Shown here in pieces: positions 27,699 through 64,000 of a stretch of 64,000 bases of DNA. The position numbers and the translations under genes were made by a program. Source of the DNA: a virus (lineage: Duplodnaviria; Caudoviricetes); the IMG/VR virus record IMGVR_UViG_3300021387_001464, positions 1 through 64,000 of that record, one strand, 5' to 3'. How positions within the stretch are numbered: position 1 is the stretch's first letter; each line of letters opens with the position of its first letter. The notes under the pieces are model-generated. The model was given only the letters and a program-made list of their open reading frames with translations. It was not told the origin of the DNA and did not search any database.

Positions 27699-28436
27699 AT
27701 GTTTGACAATTTTTACAACCCATTCCACATGATGCAGCAACCAGATGATGACATGATGAAGGATATGACCTTCGAGGACCGCATCAGGTTCTGCGTGCTG
27801 CAAGTGATTAGTTTCTTTTGTGTATTAGCCATCGCACTGGTCGCCTGTACCGTTATCTCACTATTCACAGGATGCACCACCACGAAAGCCATTGAGAACC
27901 ATCACCACCACTATGTGCAGGCCGACACGCTGGCTATCCAGGCTCAAATAGACCGCCGACTAAGCAGTTGGCACGCCCAAATGGACTCGTTATGGCGGCA
28001 GCGCATGGAAGAGTACAGTGCCTCGTTGTTCAGCAACGAGGACCAAAAAGAAAAAGTCACCGAGACCATCACCACCTGGACGGACAGCCTTGGCCGAGAA
28101 ATGCGTCAGGAGCAGCGCACCACGGAGCGGTCCATGTCGCGCATGCAGCAACAAACCGAACAGCGCCTAAGCCGTGAATTTAAAATGAGGTTGAGCACGG
28201 CACTTGATTCCGTCAACGACATCTGGCAGCAGCGGTTCGAGCGGTACCAGACGCATTGGGAACAGGCTGACAGCACGGATAGTCATGCGCAAAGCGGTTC
28301 TGCCGCCTTTGGCGAACTTCCGTGGTATAAACGCTGGTGGCAGACACTGAAAGACTACCTGCTCATGGCGGCTATCCTTGCACTGCTCATCATAACATGG
28401 AAATGGTGGAGCCCATTGCTGCGAAAGATGTTTTAG
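27699..28436 (+). CDS. membrane-anchored lipoprotein-like protein (possible spanin)
   Basis: N-terminal TM/lipobox LFTGC, coiled coil, C-terminal TM. Confidence 0.55.
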   Translation: MFDNFYNPFHMMQQPDDDMMKDMTFEDRIRFCVLQVISFFCVLAIALVACTVISLFTGCTTTKAIENHHHHYVQADTLAIQAQIDRRLSSWHAQMDSLWRQRMEEYSASLFSNEDQKEKVTETITTWTDSLGREMRQEQRTTERSMSRMQQQTEQRLSREFKMRLSTALDSVNDIWQQRFERYQTHWEQADSTDSHAQSGSAAFGELPWYKRWWQTLKDYLLMAAILALLIITWKWWSPLLRKMF

Positions 28437-28497
28437 ACCACGGATTACACAGATTATACGGATTAGGTTTTTAACGAACACGAATAGACACGAATTT

Positions 28498-28866
28498 ATG
28501 AAAAGAACAGTTGATACACTACGAGGACGATATAAGATTATCGGTGATGGAGAAACTACAAAGGCCGTAAGCATTATGGATAATGACGATTGCTTCGAGT
28601 TCGACAAATCAGAAGTAACCGATGAAGAGGTACAGGAACGCATCAATGCTACTTGCGAATGGCCGAAAGCAGGCGAATGGTGTTCCGACTTTGATAAGGC
28701 ACCACGAGGAATCCCTGTATTGCTGTATAGCGGAGAGATATACGAACCCGCTGTCGGAAGCATCAGCGAGACCGATGACGAAATTATCAGCAGCCATTCG
28801 GAATACGACCACTGCCCACTGAACCACATCGACCAGTTTATGATTATCCCAGACTTTGAGCCATGA
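28498..28866 (+). CDS. hypothetical protein
   Basis: 122 aa ORF overlapping the next gene (ATGA). Confidence 0.7.
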   Translation: MKRTVDTLRGRYKIIGDGETTKAVSIMDNDDCFEFDKSEVTDEEVQERINATCEWPKAGEWCSDFDKAPRGIPVLLYSGEIYEPAVGSISETDDEIISSHSEYDHCPLNHIDQFMIIPDFEP

Positions 28867-29564
28867 ACGTAAACGAGATATACAATATGGACTGCCTGCA
28901 GGGATTGCGGCAAATTGAGAGTGGCACGGTGTCGCTCATCGTTGCAGACCCGCCATACGAGTTGCAGCAGCACAACGAAAAAGGCGGTAGTGCTTTCGGC
29001 AAGAAAGGCCGAGACTATCATCAAGGCATCGACCACCTGCAAAGCGGTGTGAGCAACGAAGTGTTGGAGGAATGTCTGCGTGTCTGCAAGCATCCTAACA
29101 TGTATATCTTCTGCTCGAAAGACCAGTTGCCGCAGTTGCTGGGCTTTGCACTCAGCCACAAGTTGAAGTACGACCTGCTGACGTGGCACAAGACGAACCC
29201 TGTGCCAACCTGCAACAACAAGTATCTGAGCGATACGGAGTACATCGTATTCATGCGGAATGGCGCCAACCTCTACGGCACGTATGAGACCAAGCGCAAG
29301 TATTTCATCACTCAGACGAATACTGCCGACAAGAAGGCTTTCGGGCATCCTACACCAAAGCCTGTGCCTATCATCAAGACGCTTATAGAGAACTCAACCC
29401 AACTGGGGGGGGTAGTTCTTGACCCTTACATGGGCAGTGGCACAACGGCAATCGCTTGTATGCAGAGCGGACGGAAGTACATCGGCTTCGAGTTGAACAA
29501 GGAATACTACGACAAGGCGGTAAAGCGTATCAAGGGCGAGCAAGCACAACTTACGCTATTCTAA
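28863..29564 (+). CDS. DNA N6A/N4C methyltransferase (beta class) with an in-frame G8 tract
   Basis: DPPY, HPTPKP, VLDPYMGSGTT; G8 at 29405-29412. Confidence 0.92.
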   Translation: MNVNEIYNMDCLQGLRQIESGTVSLIVADPPYELQQHNEKGGSAFGKKGRDYHQGIDHLQSGVSNEVLEECLRVCKHPNMYIFCSKDQLPQLLGFALSHKLKYDLLTWHKTNPVPTCNNKYLSDTEYIVFMRNGANLYGTYETKRKYFITQTNTADKKAFGHPTPKPVPIIKTLIENSTQLGGVVLDPYMGSGTTAIACMQSGRKYIGFELNKEYYDKAVKRIKGEQAQLTLF

Positions 29565-29579
29565 ATTCGTTTCATCCGT

Positions 29580-30770
29580 TCAGTCCGTTTTTGTAATTCC
29601 GAACACGCGGTCCAGCAACTTGAAGTTGTTGTCGTTAATCACCGAAAAATCTTTCTGGATATAGATATCAGCCACGTCGTAACTGCCGACGTGGTTGAGT
29701 GCTTCATCGACATCGCCTTTCGAGAAGTGCATCAGGTTGCGTGACAACGTGGCGAAGGTGTGGCGAGCCTGGTAGAACTGCAGACCGTCGATGCCCACCG
29801 CCTCGCCGACGGTTTTCAGACCTACATTGATGGCGCGGTTGAAGTCCTCCGGCGATCCATAGCGGCGATGGAAGGTGAACACGCGGTCGGCGGCGCGGTA
29901 TTTCTTGATGAGCCGCCCGATGACGGGATGCACCTTAACCTCGATGTAGGCATCGTCACTGCGGCGATCTTTCGTCTTTGTGCGGTTGTACTTCAGTACA
30001 CCGTGTGTCAGCGTCTTCGCTGAGTACATATCCACGGAGTTCATACCCATCAGACAGAACGAGAGGATGAAGCAGTCGCGGGCCAGTTGCGCACGACTGT
30101 ACGGCTCACCCTTGTAGCGGTATATTGCCATCAGCTGCTTCAGCGTCAGTGCCCGCACACCCTTCTTCATCTGCTGCTTTGGTACACGATAGCGCAGGAA
30201 CGGGTCGTTCTGGATGACCGTCTCGTAGTCGGTGTTATATCGGCGCATGGCCTCACGGAACAGGTGGCGCATCAGTCCGAGGTAGAGCGATTGCGCACGG
30301 GGCTTGTCTTTCAGGTGCTGCTCATAGTCCTCCAGCAACTTATAGGTAATCATCTTGAACGGCAGCCGACGCTTACCCAGGTAACTCTCCAGTGAGTTCA
30401 GCATCGTCACGTAGTTCTTAGCCCCCTTTATGTCGTTGCGCCGCAGCCAGTCCTCGGCAAAGGTGAAGAAGTCCGCCACCTCCTCCTTTGTCACGATACG
30501 CTCCGCTATCTCTGTGGCGTCCATCGTCGCCGTGCCCAGTGCATCCAATTGCAGTGCATCGAGCCGTTCCTGCAACTCACGCCGCTTCTGCTCAATCATC
30601 TTTGCCTTCTCCGGCTCACGAATGCGCTTACCGTTGGTCGTCAGTTCCGAGTCGGTAGCGGTGATGCCCGTTGGGATGCGCTTCTTCGTCCGTCCCTCAC
30701 AAATCAGAAACGACACCGGGTGCAGCCGTTTCTTGTTCCTCTTTCCTATCTCAATCGTTATTGTTGCCAT
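29580..30770 (-). CDS. int: tyrosine integrase
   Basis: SAM-like domain, YxRxKT, ARHTFAT, LNH and IY catalytic motifs of Bacteroidales integrases. Confidence 0.92.
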   Translation of the reverse strand: MATITIEIGKRNKKRLHPVSFLICEGRTKKRIPTGITATDSELTTNGKRIREPEKAKMIEQKRRELQERLDALQLDALGTATMDATEIAERIVTKEEVADFFTFAEDWLRRNDIKGAKNYVTMLNSLESYLGKRRLPFKMITYKLLEDYEQHLKDKPRAQSLYLGLMRHLFREAMRRYNTDYETVIQNDPFLRYRVPKQQMKKGVRALTLKQLMAIYRYKGEPYSRAQLARDCFILSFCLMGMNSVDMYSAKTLTHGVLKYNRTKTKDRRSDDAYIEVKVHPVIGRLIKKYRAADRVFTFHRRYGSPEDFNRAINVGLKTVGEAVGIDGLQFYQARHTFATLSRNLMHFSKGDVDEALNHVGSYDVADIYIQKDFSVINDNNFKLLDRVFGITKTD

Positions 30771-52188: not shown

Positions 52189-52298
52189 AATTCGTGTAAT
52201 TCGTGGTCGAAAAAGAACAATCCGTTCCATCCGTGCCATCCGTGTTCAAAAATAAATAAAACAACCCAAATATTCACTTATTAAACATTTTCAAAACA

Positions 52299-53534
52299 AT
52301 GAGAACAAACGAGATTTCTATCGACGTGCAGGGCTTCAAGAAAGTCCTCGACATGGTGAAGGGCTGCGTGCCCTCGAAACCCACAATGCCTATCCTCGCC
52401 AACGTGAAGCTGGACTGGGACAAGGCTACTGGCAAGTTCTACCTCTCTGCCTCCAATGGCGATCAGTATCTGACCGTGGAGTGTGCCGAGCGCCGCAAGG
52501 TGGACGACGGCATTCAGATCGAGGCTTGTGTTCACATGCTGAAGGAAGACCCCAAGGAGCACTGGCAGCCCGTCTGTCTGCCCTTTGCCGCCCTGCGTGA
52601 GATGTTCGCCCTGCTGCCCGCCGCCCGCCGCTGTCTGGTGCAGTTGGAGGAGAAGGACGATGTGCGCAAGATGAAGATTGACTATCAGGAAGGCAAGACG
52701 TCGCTGCCTTACGATGCCGCCGACGAGTTCCCCGTGCCTCCCGCAGTGGAAGCCGAGAAGTGTCGCTTCCAGACCGATGCCGCCCCACTGCTCACCGCCG
52801 TGCGCAGTGCCAAGACCTGTTCTGCTGACGACGAGTTGCGTCCCGTGATGAACTCGGTGTGTCTCGACTGCTTCATTGACAGCATCGTAGTCGTAGCCTC
52901 CGACGGTCATACTATGTATAAGCAGGTGCTCGAAACGCCAGGCTACATGCAGCAGGTAGGCTTCCCCGCCGATGGCAGCACCCGTCTGCTGTTGCCCAAG
53001 CAGGCTATGTCGAGCGTTGTCAGTGCCCTCGACAAGAGCGAGCGCATCACTGTCACTGCCGACTCGCAGCGCATGCAGTTCTCTACCGACGGCGTGACAC
53101 TCATCACCCGCTGCATCGAGGGCAACTACCCCAACTACGAGGCCGTCATCCCCAAGGACAATCCTTATAAGGTATCTATGAGTCGTGACACCCTGCGCAT
53201 GGCTCTGCGCCGTGTCGGTCTGTCGGCCAACACATCGAGCAACATGGCTACCCTCTCTTTCGCGACCGACGCCTTCGTGGTGGCTGCCGATGACTACGAG
53301 TTCTCCCGCGAGGGCTCTGAGCGTGTGCCCATCCAGCAGAACGACGCCTTCCTGCCTGCCGATTTCAAGATAGGCATCAAGATCAGCAGCACCCTCGACC
53401 TGCTCGACCTGCTCGACGAAGACAGCATCCAGTTGTTCCTCTCCGACCCCAGCCGTGCCATCCTGCTGAAGAACGAGTCGCCCACGCTGCAAGGCAAGAC
53501 GCTCCTGCAGATGCCGATGTTGGTAAATCAGTAA
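52299..53534 (+). CDS. dnaN: DNA polymerase III beta sliding clamp
   Basis: PILANV, DELRPVMN, VASDGH, IEGNYPNYEAVIP, LQMPM. Confidence 0.92.
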   Translation: MRTNEISIDVQGFKKVLDMVKGCVPSKPTMPILANVKLDWDKATGKFYLSASNGDQYLTVECAERRKVDDGIQIEACVHMLKEDPKEHWQPVCLPFAALREMFALLPAARRCLVQLEEKDDVRKMKIDYQEGKTSLPYDAADEFPVPPAVEAEKCRFQTDAAPLLTAVRSAKTCSADDELRPVMNSVCLDCFIDSIVVVASDGHTMYKQVLETPGYMQQVGFPADGSTRLLLPKQAMSSVVSALDKSERITVTADSQRMQFSTDGVTLITRCIEGNYPNYEAVIPKDNPYKVSMSRDTLRMALRRVGLSANTSSNMATLSFATDAFVVAADDYEFSREGSERVPIQQNDAFLPADFKIGIKISSTLDLLDLLDEDSIQLFLSDPSRAILLKNESPTLQGKTLLQMPMLVNQ

Positions 53535-53764
53535 GTTTTTAACGACCACGGATTACGCGGATTGACACGGATTATAGCCCGCCCAAAGAAGAACAAAGGT
53601 CGTCGCTTGTTGCTCCTCAAAATCCAAACAAAATCTATTTTGAAAATCGCAATGTACCTTGAAGGATTTTGAACAAAGATTTTTGGAAGATTTTAAGCCC
53701 ACAAGGGCGCCCAAAAGAATCCGTGAAATCCGTGCCATCCGTGTTCAAAAAAGAAAAAGCAATT

Positions 53765-60116: not shown

Positions 60117-60503
60117 ATGAACAAATTCCAAAAGGGCGATATGGAAGAAATACAGGATGCTTGCAGCGAGGGCAAGGAATTTTACTTAGACAGCCCTGAT
60201 AGTGACCGTAGGGCGTTCTTCAAGTTTGGAGGAACGACTTATTTCATTACGCGGGATGGCAAGGTGCTCTCATCGCGAGGCGACGGGTATCGCGAGCACG
60301 AGATTGCGCAGTATAATGGCAAGGGTTATCGTCGTGTACGGCTACGTGGCAAGACATTCAAGGTTCACCGCCTGGTGGCCGAGGCATTCGTGCCCAACCC
60401 TGACAACTTGCCCTATGTGCTGCACATTGACGGGGACCGCGAGAATAACATCTGTAGAAACCTGGAGTGGTCCGCAAAGCAGAGCAACCACCATGGGAAG
60501 TGA
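60117..60503 (+). CDS. HNH (HNH_3/NUMOD4-type) endonuclease
   Basis: VHRLVAEAFVPNP..V.HIDGDRENN...NLEW. Confidence 0.9.
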   Translation: MNKFQKGDMEEIQDACSEGKEFYLDSPDSDRRAFFKFGGTTYFITRDGKVLSSRGDGYREHEIAQYNGKGYRRVRLRGKTFKVHRLVAEAFVPNPDNLPYVLHIDGDRENNICRNLEWSAKQSNHHGK

Positions 60504-60575
60504 AAAGTGAAAAGTGAAAAGTGAAAAATTTCTTGCTTAGGCAAGCGTACTAAAGAAACGATTAGCTACCGCCGT

Positions 60576-60730
60576 ATGAGTTATGTCGATAAACCCATCA
60601 TCCTTGGCAGGTACAGCCCGAGTCAGAATGGCATAGTGGTAAGCCCACGCGGACCCGCACTCTGCCTTGCAGGGGGGGTAACGGACACGATACGGACAAG
60701 CCGAAAATACTGATAGAACATGAATTGTAA
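60576..60730 (+). CDS. TRD-like mini-gene 1, frameshifted (G7; G8 restores)
   Basis: MSYVDKPIILGRYSPSQNGIVVSPRGPALCLAGG|GNGHDTDKPKILIEHEL*. Confidence 0.7.
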
Positions 60731-60863
60731 AACAATGCTATTGAATCCACAGGGGGGGGTATGCCGCACCATCAAGTCACAGTATTACAAAAGCAGCGTG
60801 GCGAATTTCCTGCTGCAGACCACCAGAGGAGCAACGGCAGTATTGATAGAATATGAACTATAA
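60720..60863 (+). CDS. TRD-like mini-gene 2, in frame (G8)
   Basis: MNCKTMLLNPQGGVCRTIKSQYYKSSVANFLLQTTRGATAVLIEYEL*. Confidence 0.75.
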   Translation: MNCKTMLLNPQGGVCRTIKSQYYKSSVANFLLQTTRGATAVLIEYEL

Positions 60864-61078
60864 GCGCATACCGAAGCCAGCGAACCTGCGAGACCATACA
60901 CCGAGTATGGCCGAAGCATTGCCCTATATGATAGAGGCGTGCGGTTTGAGGGGGGGGGTGTTTGTTCGACTATCGCCACTTTGTGTACGACACCATCGAC
61001 GGATGCTACCCGTTCCCAGTGACCACAAGGATTCATGCCAGTAATCAGATTTGGCTATGCAAAGAAATAGAACTTTAA
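60853..61078 (+). CDS. TRD-like mini-gene 3, frameshifted (G9; G8 restores)
   Basis: ..ACGLRGG|CLFDYRHFVYDTIDGCYPFPVTTRIHASNQIWLCKEIEL*. Confidence 0.6.
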
Positions 61079-61092
61079 AACAAGATAAAAGA

Positions 61093-62598
61093 ATGATTGC
61101 AAAAGTTTATCCAGATGGGCATCCTGACTTGCAAGGCAAGAAGGACCCGACGCACCCAGTGCGCTATTTCGACATCCGTAAACTCACTCCACGCAAGTGC
61201 TATTCACTGATGGGCGTGCCGCCGCAGCAGATCGACACGCTGATGAAAACCGAAAAGAAACCATATATGGCATGGGTGGGCGTAGATGCCGAACTGGCTG
61301 TGTTCGGACTGGAGCCGAGTGCCACGCGCCGCGAGGTCGATGAAGCATATCGCGAGGCTATCGAGAGTCTAAGAAGACCCACCCCCGACCCCTCCCTGGG
61401 CGAGGGAGGGGAGTGTGAAGACCCCGACAGACCCACCCCCATGCACCTCCCTGCTGAGGGAGGGGAGTGTGAAGAGCCTGAAATGAGCGAAGAGGAGGTG
61501 GCCCTGATGCGTGAGAACTACGATATGAACTACCAGCGCATCATCGCTGCCAGCCAGGAGCAGCGTTACGGTGACGTGCAGATTATTGCCAACTCGTCGC
61601 ATTACAAGCTGGCGGGTAACTCCATCGTCTGCGACGTGCTGATGTATATCTACGAGGAACTGATGTACCCGACGGGCCGCCGACTGCCGCAGGAGCAGAC
61701 CGACCTGTTCGCCCAGCCGCAGTTCCGGCTGACCCGAAACTGGAAGAAAGAGCCGCTGAAGTTGGTAACACTTTGCAGCGGCTACGACTCGCAGGCAATC
61801 GCTATGGATATGCTGCAACAGCGCTATCCGGACTTCCGATGGGAACTGAAGGCATGGAGCGAGTTCGACCCCGAGAGCAGCCGGCCACTGGAAGAGCAGC
61901 CCGCCGTGGTGGCCCATAATCTGCTGTTCCCACAATACAAGGATTTGAACCGTGGCGACATGACCAAGGCCGACTGGAGCGACCTCGCCGATGCAGGTAT
62001 CGACCTGCTGACATATAGTACTCCGTGTCAGTCCATCTCACAGGCTGGCAAGCGAGAGGGTATCAAGAAAGGTAGTGGCACTCGCAGCGCCGTGCTGTGG
62101 AGCACCGAGATGGCGGTAGAGCATCTGCGACCGAAGGTGCTATTGCAGGAGAATGTGCGGGCGCTTATCAACAGCGTGAACATGCCCGACTTCCGCGAGT
62201 GGTGCAGCCTGCTGGAGAGCTACGGCTACGTGAACTTCCTCGCGCCATCGTTCCCGACGGTCTGGGGCACCGACAAGCGCGACAAGAAGACCGTGCCGGG
62301 CATCCTGAACGCCAAGCATTATGGTGTGCCACAGAACCGCGAGCGGGTGTATATGGTCTCCATTCGTGCCGACCTGCTCGGTGGCACGCAGTATGAGTTT
62401 CCCCGTCCTTTCCCGCTCGACAAGTGCATTGCCGATGTGCTGGAGGATAATGTCGATGAGCGTTTCTTCCTGAAGCCCGACTCGGTAATCAAGTTCCTCA
62501 CAGTGAATGAATCGACTGACAGTAACGATATACACTATACGGTAACGGACCACAAACTCTCCGATGAAGAAATCGCCAAGATTCGTAGTGGAAAGTAG
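61093..62598 (+). CDS. circularly permuted DNA (cytosine-5) methyltransferase lacking an internal TRD
   Basis: Motif order IX (IRKLTPR..LMG), X (YKLAGNSI), I (LCSGYD), IV (TPCQ), VI (QENV), VIII (PQNRERVY), then a short tail. Confidence 0.9.
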   Translation: MIAKVYPDGHPDLQGKKDPTHPVRYFDIRKLTPRKCYSLMGVPPQQIDTLMKTEKKPYMAWVGVDAELAVFGLEPSATRREVDEAYREAIESLRRPTPDPSLGEGGECEDPDRPTPMHLPAEGGECEEPEMSEEEVALMRENYDMNYQRIIAASQEQRYGDVQIIANSSHYKLAGNSIVCDVLMYIYEELMYPTGRRLPQEQTDLFAQPQFRLTRNWKKEPLKLVTLCSGYDSQAIAMDMLQQRYPDFRWELKAWSEFDPESSRPLEEQPAVVAHNLLFPQYKDLNRGDMTKADWSDLADAGIDLLTYSTPCQSISQAGKREGIKKGSGTRSAVLWSTEMAVEHLRPKVLLQENVRALINSVNMPDFREWCSLLESYGYVNFLAPSFPTVWGTDKRDKKTVPGILNAKHYGVPQNRERVYMVSIRADLLGGTQYEFPRPFPLDKCIADVLEDNVDERFFLKPDSVIKFLTVNESTDSNDIHYTVTDHKLSDEEIAKIRSGK

Positions 62599-62784
62599 TG
62601 CTGTGCTGCGGGGCGTGCGGACAGAGCACGCCCGTGCAGTACGCCGTATCTACGGTGACAGGGGGGGTACTGCCACTTCTCGGACCGCAACTACCTGCCT
62701 GCTACCGATGGCTGCAGCAACACCATCACTGGCGTACAGAAGGACAACCTATTGATAGTTGAATATGAATATAAAGAGTGTTAA
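62564..62784 (+). CDS. TRD-like mini-gene 4, frameshifted (G7; G8 restores)
   Basis: ..VRTEHARAVRRIYGDRGG|YCHFSDRNYLPATDGCSNTITGVQKDNLLIVEYEYKEC*. Confidence 0.75.
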
Positions 62785-62908
62785 GCCCTACGACGATTAC
62801 AATTCTACCCCCCCCCGACGCGATGGTGTCATTGGCACCGTTACAAGGCAAATTGGAACATCAGCACCAAGGAACGGCTGGAAAATATTGATAGAGTATG
62901 AAATATAA
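62765..62908 (+). CDS. TRD-like mini-gene 5, in frame (C9)
   Basis: MNIKSVKPYDDYNSTPPRRDGVIGTVTRQIGTSAPRNGWKILIEYEI*. Confidence 0.75.
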   Translation: MNIKSVKPYDDYNSTPPRRDGVIGTVTRQIGTSAPRNGWKILIEYEI

Positions 62909-63062
62909 CAGGATATTGCAAATAGGCAACCTTACTGAAGGTGCAGGCAGAAACAACCCGCAGCGCAGAAGGCTCTACTCGCCCTATGGCATTGCACCAA
63001 CGGTGTACGGCTATCAAGGCGGTGGCAATTTGCAACCCTTGGTATTGATAGAGTATGAGTAG
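62898..63062 (+). CDS. TRD-like mini-gene 6, no homopolymer
   Basis: MKYNRILQIGNLTEGAGRNNPQRRRLYSPYGIAPTVYGYQGGGNLQPLVLIEYE*. Confidence 0.8.
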   Translation: MKYNRILQIGNLTEGAGRNNPQRRRLYSPYGIAPTVYGYQGGGNLQPLVLIEYE

Positions 63063-63255
63063 CGTTACCCCCATATTGCGGCAAGTCCCTGTTCGGCGAG
63101 TGCGGACGGAATGGGCAAAGGCCATCCGACGAGAGACGGGCACCAACCCGTTTCAAGCCAAACAACTGGAGGAGTTTGTGTCGGACTACATGCCTACCAT
63201 CACCGCCAGTGCAAACATCGAGAACTACATAAAGGTAGAGTATGATATTGATTAA
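63055..63255 (+). CDS. TRD-like mini-gene 7, no long homopolymer
   Basis: ..VRTEWAKAIRRETG..MPTITASANIENYIKVEYDID*. Confidence 0.75.
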   Translation: MSSVTPILRQVPVRRVRTEWAKAIRRETGTNPFQAKQLEEFVSDYMPTITASANIENYIKVEYDID

Positions 63256-63424
63256 AGAAACGATGCCCAACGAAGACCGCTTCCCTGTCCGTATCTCAGC
63301 AAGTCGTGGCAGGGGGGGGCAAAGACCGTTCCATCAGGTCATTGAACTCGGATCGTCGCAAGCCACAAACACCATCACATCAGTACAAAAAGATAATCTG
63401 GTATGGATAGAGCGAGATATTTAG
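63242..63424 (+). CDS. TRD-like mini-gene 8, in frame (G8)
   Basis: ..SASRGRGGQRPFHQVIELGSSQATNTITSVQKDNLVWIERDI*. Confidence 0.8.
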   Translation: MILIKETMPNEDRFPVRISASRGRGGQRPFHQVIELGSSQATNTITSVQKDNLVWIERDI

Positions 63425-63556
63425 TTGGCGTACATCCGTTCTCTCACGCTTTGGAGTGTGAGGGCAAAATATGGGGGGGGGCAAATCAGTCCTGCCCTGC
63501 GGAGTACGGATTATAAATGTCCTCATTGTGTATTGATTGAGTATGAAGGAGTTTAA
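63403..63556 (+). CDS. TRD-like mini-gene 9, frameshifted (G9; G8 restores)
   Basis: MDRARYLVGVHPFSHALECEGKIWGG|QISPALRSTDYKCPHCVLIEYEGV*. Confidence 0.75.
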
Positions 63557-63723
63557 GTTTATTGGATGGACACGGCTCGGCAGTGGAAAAGGTGACGTAT
63601 CAAAGTATCATCTGCGCCACTACTGTAACGCCATAACCTCGTTTGCAGGGGGGGGGTATTGGCAAGGATTCGCAGACTGGAATGTATAACACCACACCGT
63701 ATGTATTGATAGAATATGAGTAA
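63543..63723 (+). CDS. TRD-like mini-gene 10, frameshifted (G9; G8 restores)
   Basis: MKEFKFIGWTR..YCNAITSFAGG|GIGKDSQTGMYNTTPYVLIEYE*. Confidence 0.75.
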
Positions 63724-63911
63724 AGAAAAGAAAGTTCGCCGATGCGACAACATTGCAGGGAAGTGGATGCCCGATGGCTCTATCCGCTTCTACCAAATGA
63801 ACGAGCGGAAAGGCGGTGTGCCCGAACTTGTCAACGGCTACGCTGGGGGGGGTCATGCCCTGTATCATAGCAGGCCATGAGCATTATGTTATTGTAGATT
63901 ATGACCTATGA
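63716..63911 (+). CDS. TRD-like mini-gene 11, frameshifted (G8; G7 or G10 restores)
   Basis: MSKEKKVRR..PDGSIRFYQ..GYAGG|VMPCIIAGHEHYVIVDYDL*. Confidence 0.65.
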
Positions 63912-64000
63912 GTAACGTCAAGCATTATCCAACCGACGGGCGACCGTTTCTCTCCACCGCTTTGAGGGGGGGGCAGTTCGTGCTGCAAGTTCGACAAGCC
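63908..64000 (+). CDS. TRD-like mini-gene 12, open through G8, truncated by the window end
   Basis: MSNVKHYPTDGRPFLSTALRGGQFVLQVRQA... Confidence 0.6.
   Translation, partial: MSNVKHYPTDGRPFLSTALRGGQFVLQVRQA

What the first reader, a model, noticed from the sequence alone, without database searches (positions are those of the whole stretch)
60576..64000. Candidate new system: TRD-less C5 methyltransferase served by an array of at least 12 free-standing target-recognition mini-genes
Seen: three short ORFs precede the C5-MTase and at least nine follow it (about 47-75 aa each, mostly below the ORF-track cutoff or frameshifted). They overlap head-to-tail, differ from one another, and nearly all end in a shared (V/L)(L/I)(I/V)EYE-type motif. 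They carry segments I recognise from C5-MTase variable regions, such as NTITxVQKDNL (twice), RTExAxAxRR (twice), NPQR.R.YSP.GIAPT, SPALRSTDYK, CRTIKSQYYK, YDDYN and VRQA. Known: the TRD normally lies between motifs VIII and IX; multispecific Bacillus phage MTases (SPR, phi3T) chain several TRDs in one polypeptide; a few C5-MTases such as M.AquI are split into two chains. Inference: here the catalytic core and the specificity modules are separate genes, so one core could dock interchangeable TRD peptides in trans, perhaps via the conserved C-terminal LIEYE strand. That would give a modular anti-restriction methylome.
Basis: partly seen in the sequence, partly recalled or inferred. Interest (0 to 1): 0.97.

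Follow-up and report, generated by a model that had tools for sequence, protein, structure and literature searches.

The report
Phage methylase with switchable specificity mini-genes
A rumen/gut phage carries a cytosine DNA methylase that lacks its DNA-reading domain. It is flanked by 15 tiny overlapping genes, each encoding one such domain, and most carry a slippery G-run that can turn them on or off, which suggests a new way for a virus to vary which DNA sites it methylates.

Summary
The C5-methyltransferase (61093-62598) is circularly permuted (IX-X-I-IV-VI-VIII) and has no recognisable target-recognition domain (TRD). It is flanked by 3 upstream and 12 downstream mini-ORFs; the array ends at contig position 64682. 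Each mini-ORF ends in an (L/V)(L/I)(I/V)EYE-type strand, and the next ATG lies inside the TAT-GA of that motif.

The mini-ORFs are TRDs. A profile of one type hits 1327 proteins in 1.84 billion. The long hits are PF00145 enzymes, matched in the variable region, often 3-6 times. Distant relatives (L071, L075) hold the same TRD types in tandem in one chain.

All frameshifts lie in G/C homopolymers. In 88 related loci, 59 tract-bearing cassettes are in frame and 117 are restored by ±1 nt; 10 were not restorable. Both halves show dN/dS far below 1. Near-identical phages differ in tract length.

A complex model docks cassette U6 on the core (0.84; best control 0.00).

Best reading (about 0.6): free TRD subunits act in trans and are individually phase-variable. 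Action in trans is not shown, and an engineered analogue failed in the literature. No paper found describes this architecture. Other first readers of this scan noted the same stretch; none followed it up.

The parts
60117..60503 (+). HNH_3 endonuclease gene, a conserved upstream neighbour of the array; role unknown
   Evidence: Pfam PF13392, E 3e-7. Homologues lie just upstream of, or inside, the upstream array in about 19 related loci.
60576..60730 (+). Cassette U1 (M.HhaI-like, U15-like TRD). Tract G7 at 60672-60678; out of frame, G8 would restore a 51-aa product ending ILIEHE.
   Evidence: The L004, L005 and L006 orthologues are in frame, two of them without a homopolymer.
60720..60863 (+). 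Cassette U2, 47 aa. Tract G8 at 60752-60759; in frame.
   Evidence: Related-strain contigs have G7 here.
60853..61078 (+). Cassette U3. Tract G9 at 60950-60958; out of frame, G8 restores 74 aa. It ends in CKEIEL and a stop, and is not fused to the MTase.
   Evidence: A related strain carries a different cassette of the same length here (joint 60862>61070).
61093..62598 (+). Circularly permuted C5-MTase core without a TRD. Motif IX lies at about 61170-61215 and motif X at about 61605-61640. A roughly 130-aa insert with acidic repeats separates them. Motifs I, IV (PCQ), VI (ENV) and VIII (QNRER) follow. Alternative starts are TTG 61051 and ATG 61057.
   Evidence: PF00145 E 3.9e-36, profile positions 42-220 only. 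The N-terminal piece matches profile 270-291 weakly. The motif X region aligns to the C-terminus of M.MpeI. No cassette HMM hit. More than 1900 homologues.
62564..62784 (+). Cassette U4 (RTE..A..RR ... NTITGVQKDNL type). Its ATG lies inside GAT-GAA of the core's conserved LSDEEI tail. Tract G7 at 62661-62667; out of frame, G8 restores 73 aa.
   Evidence: Contigs of related strains have G8 here.
62765..62908 (+). Cassette U5 (YDDYN type), 47 aa. Tract C9 at 62808-62816; in frame.
62898..63062 (+). Cassette U6 (M.HhaI-like TRD), 54 aa. No homopolymer; in frame.
   Evidence: Profile search. Complex model.
63055..63255 (+). Cassette U7 (RRVRTEWAKAIRR type), 66 aa. No homopolymer; in frame.
63242..63424 (+). 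Cassette U8 (RGRGG ... NTITSVQKDNL type), 60 aa. Tract G8 at 63312-63319; in frame.
   Evidence: Matches modules of L075/L071 and of long PF00145 proteins.
63403..63556 (+). Cassette U9 (SPALRSTDYK type). Tract G9 at 63473-63481; out of frame, G8 restores 50 aa.
63543..63723 (+). Cassette U10 (IGWTR ... YNTTPY type). Tract G9 at 63648-63656; out of frame, G8 restores 59 aa.
   Evidence: The same type is fused to the core N-terminus in L008, L010 and L013 and sits upstream of the core in L003 and L004.
63716..63911 (+). Cassette U11. Tract G8 at 63845-63852; out of frame, G7 restores 64 aa ending VIVDYDL.
   Evidence: A related strain lacks it exactly between the junctions (joint 63714>63907).
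63908..64000 (+). Cassette U12 (VRQA type), which runs to 64162 of the contig. Tract G8 at 63966-63973; in frame, 84 aa. Beyond the window lie U13 (64152-64292), U14 (64279-64573, G10 at 64331-64340) and U15 (to 64682).

Best explanation
This is a multispecific phage C5-cytosine methyltransferase rebuilt as a core plus a library of separate specificity subunits.

The core (IX-X-I..VIII) carries the cofactor and catalytic motifs. It ends exactly where a TRD should begin, and starts shortly before motif IX.

Each of the 15 mini-genes encodes one complete TRD, running from the first recognition-loop region to the last beta-strand (the LIEYE-type motif). The mini-genes are translated one after another by termination-reinitiation, because each ATG lies inside the TAT-GA of the preceding EYE.

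A free TRD peptide is inferred to dock on the core in the normal TRD position. Its last strand would pair with the strand that precedes motif IX. One core could then methylate as many motifs as there are expressed cassettes, protecting phage DNA from many host restriction systems.

Most cassettes encode the conserved Gly-Gly(-Gly) of the TRD as a G7-G10 run (one as a C run). Slipped-strand changes of ±1 nt switch each cassette on or off independently, usually with G8 in frame. A phage population would therefore carry many methylation repertoires.

Cassettes are also gained, lost and moved between the two sides of the core by recombination at the conserved junctions.

Shown here: TRD identity, a core with no recognisable TRD, purifying selection on both halves, tract polymorphism between near-identical genomes, and cassette turnover at junctions. 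Inferred: docking in trans, methylation specificities, switching within a clone, and the anti-restriction role.
For: TRD identity:
- The U6-type profile finds 1327 proteins in 1.84e9.
- 10 of 10 long hits are PF00145. The match lies in the variable region (P0200, residues 229-276 of 385) or is repeated 3-6 times.
- U8, U9, U12, U13 and U14/15 HMMs hit modules of such proteins.
- L071 and L075 hold the same TRD types in tandem before IX-X.
- U10-type and LDTYN-type TRDs occur fused to the core N-terminus in relatives.

Core: PF00145 over profile 42-220 only, IX/X at the N-terminus, and no cassette HMM hit.

Not decay:
- 117 of 127 out-of-frame tract-bearing cassettes are restored by ±1 nt in the tract alone.
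- dN/dS is 0.08-0.5 in both halves in most families, including copies sampled out of frame.

Own translation:
- The junction Tyr codon is TAT in 172 of 186 cases, against 47% TAT in the contig's long ORFs.
- Off-frames after the tract stay open much longer than in codon-shuffled controls: 0.64 against 0.37 of the distance to the junction.

Selected mutability:
- GGG is 9% of Gly codons in the contig's long ORFs, yet 176 of 207 cassettes carry a G/C run of 6 or more.
- Cassettes with identical peptides differ in tract length between contigs and between related-strain contigs from runs of the same sample.

Docking: ipSAE 0.84 in three runs, best of 3 controls 0.00. The three runs agree in at least 75% of their contacts, and the partner's pLDDT is at least 75. 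That mark was reached by 58 of 80 solved complexes and by 2 of 110 mismatched pairs. Cassette residues 48-51 touch core residues 26-28, and cassette 31-35 touch motif VIII.

Cassette turnover at junctions.
Against: - No experiment shows that any cassette peptide is made, binds the core or confers a specificity.
- The complex pass may reflect memory of single-chain structures such as M.HhaI, and the alignments were my own.
- The engineered equivalents, a (IX-X-I..VIII) fragment plus an isolated TRD fragment of M.MpeI and of M.SssI, gave no methylation in E. coli (PMC5944983).
- The in-frame share of tract-bearing cassettes is 59 of 176, about one third. That is also what neutral tract drift would give.
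- G7, one base short, is the commonest state (70 of 117 out-of-frame copies). This could point to -1 recoding rather than DNA switching.
- Only assembled contigs were available, not raw reads, so heterogeneity within a clone is not shown.
- Single cassettes gave no Pfam or PDB sequence hit.
- Families U2/U11, U3, U5 and U7 were not linked to covalent MTases in the sets searched.
Confidence: 0.6

Rival explanations
1. The cassettes are a silent archive. Only a TRD covalently joined to the core is used, at the N-terminal site before motif IX or perhaps at the C-terminus. The other cassettes are donors, moved into that site by recombination at the conserved junction repeats, as in pilin-type cassette switching.
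For: 40 of 120 close core homologues carry an in-frame N-terminal TRD, and L008, L010 and L013 carry another type there. The same cassette family lies upstream in one phage and downstream in another. Related strains replace or delete cassettes exactly at junctions, with 9 shared letters at two joints. The one-third in-frame share fits tracts that are not under selection for frame. Engineered free TRDs failed to complement.
Against: Silent donors would not need their own ATG, yet the junction Tyr is TAT in 92% of cases against 47% in the genome. Arrays tend to lose the ATG after the last cassette. Silent donors would also not keep an uninterrupted G-run against codon usage or avoid off-frame stops. 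In this phage and in about half of its relatives, no TRD is fused to the core at all. The fused TRDs belong to very few families. No recombinase gene is adjacent.
Confidence: 0.15
2. The homopolymers are recoding sites rather than DNA switches. Transcriptional slippage or -1/+1 ribosomal frameshifting on the G-run would yield a set fraction of full-length TRD from every cassette, whatever the DNA length.
For: G7, which a -1 shift would rescue, is the commonest state: 70 of 117 out-of-frame copies. U1 is G7 in three separate contigs. Both halves are under purifying selection even in copies sampled out of frame.
Against: G8 gives direct in-frame reading and is common: 45 of the 61 tracts in in-frame cassettes. 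G9 and G10 states need the opposite shift. Tract length differs between genomes with identical cassette peptides, so the DNA itself varies. Some clades encode the same Gly-Gly-Gly without any run and in frame (L005, L006, L008, L010). This rival can also coexist with DNA switching.
Confidence: 0.12
3. The locus is a decaying multispecific methylase gene, and the apparent frameshifts are homopolymer sequencing or assembly errors. On this view the pieces have no function as separate genes.
For: Continuous multi-TRD relatives exist (L071, L075). Homopolymers are error-prone in some sequencing chemistries. Only consensus contigs were seen.
Against: Junctions place every cassette in a new frame with a stop and an ATG. 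This holds in dozens of independent assemblies. 92% of out-of-frame tract-bearing cassettes have no lesion other than ±1 nt in the tract. dN/dS is far below 1. Cassettes without tracts are intact. The core itself is conserved in more than 1900 proteins. If all tracts were really G8, the locus would still be a set of separate mini-genes.
Confidence: 0.03

Closest known systems
Multispecific C5-MTases of Bacillus phages (SPR, phi3T, rho11s; Trautner and co-workers). Named from my own knowledge; the Trautner 1996 reference is listed in PMC12707154.
   Same: One catalytic core serves several short TRDs, each giving its own target, in a phage, presumably against host restriction. Distant relatives of this locus (L071, L075) have exactly that layout, with the same TRD types in tandem before motifs IX-X.
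   Different: Here the TRDs are not in one chain between VIII and IX. Each is its own overlapping mini-ORF. They lie on both sides of a permuted core, number up to 15, and most carry a homopolymer switch.
Natural circularly permuted C5-MTases (M.BssHII, M.Alw26I, M2.Eco31I, M.Esp3I, M2.BsaI; PMC5944983)
   Same: Motifs IX-X precede I-VIII, and the permutation point lies in the variable region. Relatives with an N-terminal TRD have that same topology (TRD-IX-X-I..VIII).
   Different: In this phage the permuted enzyme has no covalent TRD at either end. Both new termini abut TRD cassettes.
[quoted passage not shown]
   Same: Catalytic and recognition parts sit on separate polypeptides that must assemble. 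The L071 and L075 relatives look like such alpha (I-VIII) and beta (TRDs-IX-X) pairs.
   Different: The known beta parts contain TRD plus IX plus X. Here the separate part is the TRD alone, and there are many alternatives. The engineered TRD-alone fragments of M.MpeI and M.SssI did not complement.
Phase-variable methyltransferases (phasevarions), and the hypermutable polyG tracts of Campylobacter phages (Sorensen 2021, cited in PMC12823448; PMC12707154)
   Same: Homopolymer slippage inside a coding region switches expression. There is a precedent for polyG switching in phage genes.
   Different: Known cases switch a whole MTase or a receptor-binding protein. Here up to 11 tracts in one operon would each switch one specificity module of a single enzyme.
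Type I restriction-modification HsdS specificity subunits (analogy only)
   Same: The logic is the same: a methylase core takes its specificity from a separate, exchangeable subunit, and variation comes from shuffling specificity modules.
   Different: The fold and chemistry are unrelated (amino-MTase against C5-MTase). HsdS variation works by inversion, not by homopolymers or tandem mini-genes.

Membership tests
C5 cytosine DNA methyltransferase (PF00145) | Pfam match above the curated cut-off, with catalytic motifs IV (PCQ), VI (ENV) and VIII (QxRxR) | tested here: met
   125.6 bits against a cut-off of 22. The motifs are visible in the translation. M.MpeI and M.HhaI are the best solved relatives.
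C5 cytosine DNA methyltransferase (PF00145) | Canonical order I..VIII - TRD - IX - X in one chain | tested here: not met
   The Pfam match covers profile 42-220 only, at residues 296-490. IX/X similarity is at the N-terminus. No TRD is detectable.
Natural circularly permuted C5-MTases (M.BssHII type) | IX-X precede I-VIII, with the permutation point in the variable region | tested here: met
   Definition from PMC5944983.
Natural circularly permuted C5-MTases (M.BssHII type) | TRD covalently present at the new N-terminus | tested here: not met
   The window core starts about 26 aa before motif IX. U3 ends in a stop and lies in another frame. The feature is met in 40 of 120 homologues.
Multispecific phage C5-MTases (SPR type) | Several different TRDs serving one catalytic core | tested here: inconclusive
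   15 cassettes of about 12 families lie next to one core, and their TRD identity is shown. That they all serve the core is inferred.
Multispecific phage C5-MTases (SPR type) | TRDs contiguous in one polypeptide between motifs VIII and IX | tested here: not met
   Every junction has a frame change, a stop and a new ATG.
Multispecific phage C5-MTases (SPR type) | Methylation of several distinct target sequences | not testable with these tools
   This needs methylome data on phage DNA or expression in a test host.
Split C5-MTase (M.AquI type) | Two polypeptides split between VIII and the TRD, the second holding TRD+IX+X | tested here: not met
   IX and X are in the core, and the separate parts are TRDs alone. 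L071 and L075 do fit this layout.
Simple-sequence-repeat phase-variable (contingency) genes | Homopolymer inside the coding region whose length sets the frame | tested here: met
Simple-sequence-repeat phase-variable (contingency) genes | Tract-length polymorphism among otherwise near-identical genomes | tested here: met
   L032 against L033, and L044/45/46/49/50/70, have identical cassette peptides with G7, G8 or G9. Related-strain contigs from other runs of the same sample differ by ±1 G at 60752 and 62660.
Simple-sequence-repeat phase-variable (contingency) genes | Reversible switching at high rate within a clonal population | not testable with these tools
   All runs found are held only as assembled contigs. 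Raw reads of an isolate are needed.

The most novel reading that the evidence does not exclude
This would be a combinatorial epigenetic defence-evasion device. One TRD-less C5-MTase core accepts any of about 15 free 45-100-aa TRD peptides in trans. Eleven of them are toggled independently by homopolymer slippage. One tract (U14, G9/G10/G11) chooses between two alternative TRDs read in different frames. Off-frame stop codons are avoided, so that downstream cassettes stay translationally coupled even when a cassette is off. A single phage genotype could then explore on the order of 2^11 methylation repertoires. That would balance protection from classical restriction against exposure to methylation-dependent restriction.
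Probability: 0.45. Interest if true: 0.92.

Novelty: new variant of a known kind. Interest (0 to 1): 0.85.

Why it matters
If the cassettes work in trans, this would be the first C5-methyltransferase known to take its sequence specificity from separate, exchangeable subunits. Type I systems use that logic, but it has not been described for this enzyme class, and an engineering attempt on M.MpeI and M.SssI failed (PMC5944983).

It would also be the first case of many independently phase-variable specificity modules serving one enzyme, and it sits in a virus. That would explain how abundant rumen and gut phages, probably of Prevotellaceae, cope with the very diverse restriction systems of their hosts.

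It would also give protein engineers a natural scaffold: a core with a docking strand, plus about 20 TRD families, for programmable 5mC writers.

The family is large. The core has more than 1900 homologues, and hundreds of short TRD-only ORFs turn up in metagenomes. Gene callers largely miss or fragment them.

Tried and rejected
- Single cassettes against Pfam and against PDB sequences gave nothing; they are too short and divergent.
- U7 against longer proteins by the word-index search gave nothing.
- blastn of the locus against deposited phage genomes gave no match.
- An AlphaFold2 model of the natural TRD-core fusion of L008 had mean pLDDT 60.8, and pLDDT in the 30s over the N-terminal TRD. 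It is unusable for placing the TRD, so no fold search was run on it.
- All sequencing runs holding the locus are stored as contigs only. Tract heterogeneity within a population, transcript slippage and expression could therefore not be assessed.
- One polyprotein made by +1 frameshifting at every junction was rejected. It would need up to 12 successive shifts, TAT-GA is not a known shift site, and each junction has an ATG in the new frame.
- A programmed recombinase shufflon was rejected. The repeats are direct, not inverted, and no recombinase is adjacent; the nearest integrase lies 30 kb away.
- Literature searches found no description of free-standing TRD arrays or of phase-variable TRDs in C5-MTases. 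The library lacks most subscription journals and REBASE, so this is not proof of absence.

Full report
**1. What is in the sequence**

The window is the first 64 kb of a 111,678-bp contig. The contig has phage-type replication genes and an integrase.

Between 60576 and contig position 64682 lie one 501-515-aa C5-methyltransferase ORF and 15 short overlapping ORFs on the same strand, 3 before it and 12 after it.

Each short ORF ("cassette", U1-U15) ends in an (L/V)(L/I)(I/V)EYE-type motif, followed within 0-4 codons by a stop. The ATG of the next cassette lies inside the TAT-GA of that motif, so each cassette is in the +1 frame relative to the one before.

The first downstream cassette uses the same device. 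Its ATG lies in GAT-GAA of the conserved ..LSDEEI.. tail of the methylase.

Downstream of the array comes an SSB-like gene whose product ends in DDLPF. There is no second IX-X segment.

**2. The methylase is a permuted core without a TRD**

- Pfam PF00145 matches residues 296-490 to profile positions 42-220 only.
- The N-terminal 215 residues match profile 270-291 (motif IX) weakly.
- The GNSIVCDVL segment aligns to the C-terminal motif X region of M.MpeI.
- The same N-terminal segment is clearly homologous to the C-terminal IX-X part of canonical-order relatives (L075, L071).

The order is therefore IX-X-I-IV-VI-VIII. The chain stops after the hinge that follows motif VIII and begins about 26 residues before motif IX.

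HMMs of 14 cassette families find nothing inside the core.

[quoted passage not shown] This one is too, but it has lost the TRD itself.

**3. The cassettes are TRDs**

A profile of the U6 type (alignment A5) was searched against 1.84 billion representative proteins. It gave 1327 hits at E<=1e-3 and 99 at E<=1e-10.

Of the best 150 hits, 64 are longer than 300 aa and 48 are 140 aa or shorter.

All ten long hits scanned are PF00145 proteins:
- In canonical single-specificity enzymes the match lies between motifs VIII and IX (P0200, residues 229-276 of 385; P0218, 319-367 of 464).
- In others it recurs 3-6 times, which marks multispecific enzymes.

HMMs of other cassette families hit modules of these same long enzymes (the E-values refer to a set of 68 proteins):
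- U12: 2.5e-17
- U8: 3.7e-16
- U13: 1.3e-15
- U14/15 and U9: about 1e-5

Two distant relatives of the core, L071 and L075 (38-45% identity), have the canonical gene order. One ORF holds I-VIII. A long ORF then holds six to eight tandem in-frame TRDs, each ending in an (L/I)(I/V)(L/V)E strand, followed by IX and X. Cassettes U6, U8, U9, U11, U14 and U15 match individual modules of these chains.

From memory, U6 aligns residue for residue with the M.HhaI segment that runs from the glutamine-rich loop through TLSAYGGG to the strand before motif IX. The G-runs of the cassettes encode exactly that Gly-Gly-Gly.

**4. The architecture is conserved and the pieces are alive**

The core has more than 1900 homologues.

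I surveyed 17 viral and 70 metagenome loci plus the window and called 229 cassettes falling into 21 families.

- Among the 186 with a G/C run of 6 or more, 59 are in frame and 117 are restored to an open ATG-to-junction frame by ±1 nt in the run alone. Only 10 have some other lesion.
- Among the 43 without a run, 31 are intact.

Nei-Gojobori estimates give pN far below pS (dN/dS 0.08-0.5) in most families. This holds both before and after the tract, each in its own frame, and also when only copies sampled out of frame are compared. Synonymous sites are near saturation, so the ratios are rough.

The alignment of U1 orthologues shows the third-position pattern directly. It also shows that L005 and L006 encode the same Gly-Gly-Gly without a homopolymer and in frame.

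A decaying gene would not look like this.

**5. The tracts behave as hypermutable switches**

In-frame tracts are mostly G8 (45). Out-of-frame tracts are mostly G7 (70) or G9 (14). The implied in-frame length is 8 in 86 of 117.

Cassettes with identical peptides carry G7, G8 or G9 in different contigs, for example L032 against L033, and L044/45/46/49/50/70.

Related-strain contigs from other runs of the same sample differ from the window by -1 G at 60752 and +1 G at 62660.

GGG is the rarest glycine codon in the contig's long ORFs (9%), yet 176 of 207 intact or restorable cassettes keep a run of 6 or more. The run itself therefore appears to be selected.

In the window the states are:
- In frame: U2, U5, U8, U12 (with tracts) and U6, U7, U13 (without tracts).
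- Out of frame: U1, U3, U4, U9, U10, U11, U14.

The U14 tract is a possible three-way switch:
- G9 gives the U14 TRD.
- The observed G10 gives a 95-aa off-frame product.
- G11 or G8 gives a 133-134-aa product that ends in the U15 TRD, which has no ATG of its own.

The one-third in-frame share is also what unselected drift would give. Only contigs, not raw reads, were available, so switching within a clone is not shown.

**6. Evidence that each cassette is translated from its own start**

The Tyr of the junction is TAT in 172 of 186 junctions, against 47% TAT in the contig's long ORFs. TAC, or the absence of an ATG, is seen mainly after the last cassette of an array.

After a tract, the two wrong frames stay open for 64% of the distance to the junction on average, against 37% in codon-shuffled controls. 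They stay open for at least 75% of that distance in 157 of 322 cases, against 54 expected. This test treats orthologues as independent and does not keep dinucleotides across codon boundaries, so it is only suggestive.

I read it as selection to let ribosomes reach the next junction even when a cassette is off.

**7. Cis and trans forms coexist**

- 40 of 120 close core homologues have an in-frame N-terminal TRD of the LDTYN/LDLYN type. The same type also occurs as a free cassette ending in VVIEYNKL (cluster 16).
- L008, L010 and L013 have a U10-type TRD fused to the core, plus free downstream cassettes that lack homopolymers and are all in frame.
- In L055, L068 and several proteins, a cassette is nested in another frame inside an insertion in the core gene.
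- Cassette families change position and side between phages.
- Related strains delete or replace cassettes exactly at junctions.

**8. Docking**

A complex prediction of the core (alignment A4) with U6 (alignment A5) scored ipSAE 0.84 in three runs. The best of three controls scored 0.00. The runs agree in at least 75% of their contacts, and the partner's pLDDT is at least 75. The pass mark was reached by 58 of 80 solved complexes and by 2 of 110 mismatched pairs.

In the model:
- Cassette residues 48-51 (VLIE) lie against core residues 26-28 (FDI), immediately before motif IX.
- Cassette residues 31-35 (GIAPT) lie against motif VIII (core residues 413-417).
- A helix of the IX-X insert also touches the cassette.

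This is the position a covalent TRD would take.

The pass may come from the model's memory of M.HhaI-like single chains. It shows likeness, not binding.

Against easy complementation: TRD-alone fragments of M.MpeI and M.SssI, paired with a (IX-X-I..VIII) fragment, gave no methylation in E. coli. Cuts that leave TRD+IX+X together do complement (PMC5944983).

**9. Conclusion**

The best-supported reading, at about 0.6, is a multispecific phage C5-MTase whose TRDs have become separate, translationally coupled and individually phase-variable subunits.

The rivals are:
- A silent cassette archive feeding a covalent site (0.15).
- Recoding at the tracts instead of, or on top of, DNA switching (0.12).
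- Decay plus sequencing error (0.03).

The likely origin is a multispecific enzyme of the L071/L075 kind. Tandem duplication followed by truncation would give the permuted core, with TRD arrays on both sides. This origin is an inference.

A host hint comes from a 71%-identical core on a 104-kb contig binned with a rumen Prevotellaceae MAG. The runs holding the locus are animal-gut and ruminant metagenomes.

I found no paper describing this architecture. Other first readers of this scan noted the same features on this same stretch; none had been followed up.

Noticed in passing
window 60502-60531: A tandem heptamer (GTGAAAA x4) lies right after the HNH gene stop and before the array. Contigs laid on 60500-60616 sum to a depth of about 44,000, against about 20-50 elsewhere, and many contigs diverge at 60530-60534. 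This short element is therefore shared with very many other sequences in the metagenomes.
   Followed up: no
window 60117-60503: The HNH_3 endonuclease gene is a conserved neighbour of the upstream cassette array in about 19 related loci. In L006 it lies inside the array, and in L071 just before the canonical MTase. It could be a homing nuclease, or it could have a role in cassette turnover.
   Followed up: partly
window 61240-61560 (core residues about 50-170): A roughly 130-aa insert between motifs IX and X has a J-domain-like helix (..GLEPSATRREVDEAYREA..) and acidic repeats (EGGECE..). Strains differ by 45-nt and smaller indels here. The 55%-identical L008 clade lacks the insert. In the complex model this helix touches the cassette.
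   Followed up: partly
L055 1439-1603; L068 909-1169; proteins P0010, P0011, P0031, P0039, P0048: In some relatives a complete TRD cassette, with its own ATG and LIEYD end, is nested in a different frame inside a roughly 70-aa insertion of the core gene, between ..DWKKFMEYG and IDLLTYSTPCQ. The core frame reads through it without a stop. Runs X2 and X4 of the same sample as the window also show a 237-nt insertion at 61968-62026. From memory, this recalls the beta chain of M.EcoHK31I, which is encoded inside alpha.
   Followed up: partly
contig 64279-64682 (beyond the window): All three frames are open across the body of U14. Tract length G9, G10 or G11 gives the U14 TRD, a 95-aa Arg-rich off-frame product, or a 134-aa product ending in the U15 TRD. 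In L001 and L003 only the long form exists.
   Followed up: partly
window 29405-29412; contig 106841-106849: Two further long homopolymers lie outside the array: G8 between the integrase gene (29580-30770, minus strand) and ORF 28167-29348, and C9 late in the contig. They could be further slippage sites.
   Followed up: no
protein P0130 (1176 aa): This is a multi-TRD C5-MTase that also carries an intein (Hint, intein splicing and LAGLIDADG domains) in its N-terminal part.
   Followed up: no
L071 4468-7132; L075 4219-6557: These are canonical-order relatives split into an I-VIII ORF and an overlapping ORF with 6-8 tandem TRDs plus IX-X, an M.AquI-like alpha/beta layout with multispecific beta. 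In L075 two further TRD-like small ORFs lie between them in other frames.
   Followed up: partly
window 52281-53549 (-) and 52299-53534 (+): Two ORFs of more than 400 aa overlap almost fully on opposite strands. The plus-strand one matches a DNA polymerase processivity factor. The minus-strand one is probably a shadow ORF.
   Followed up: no
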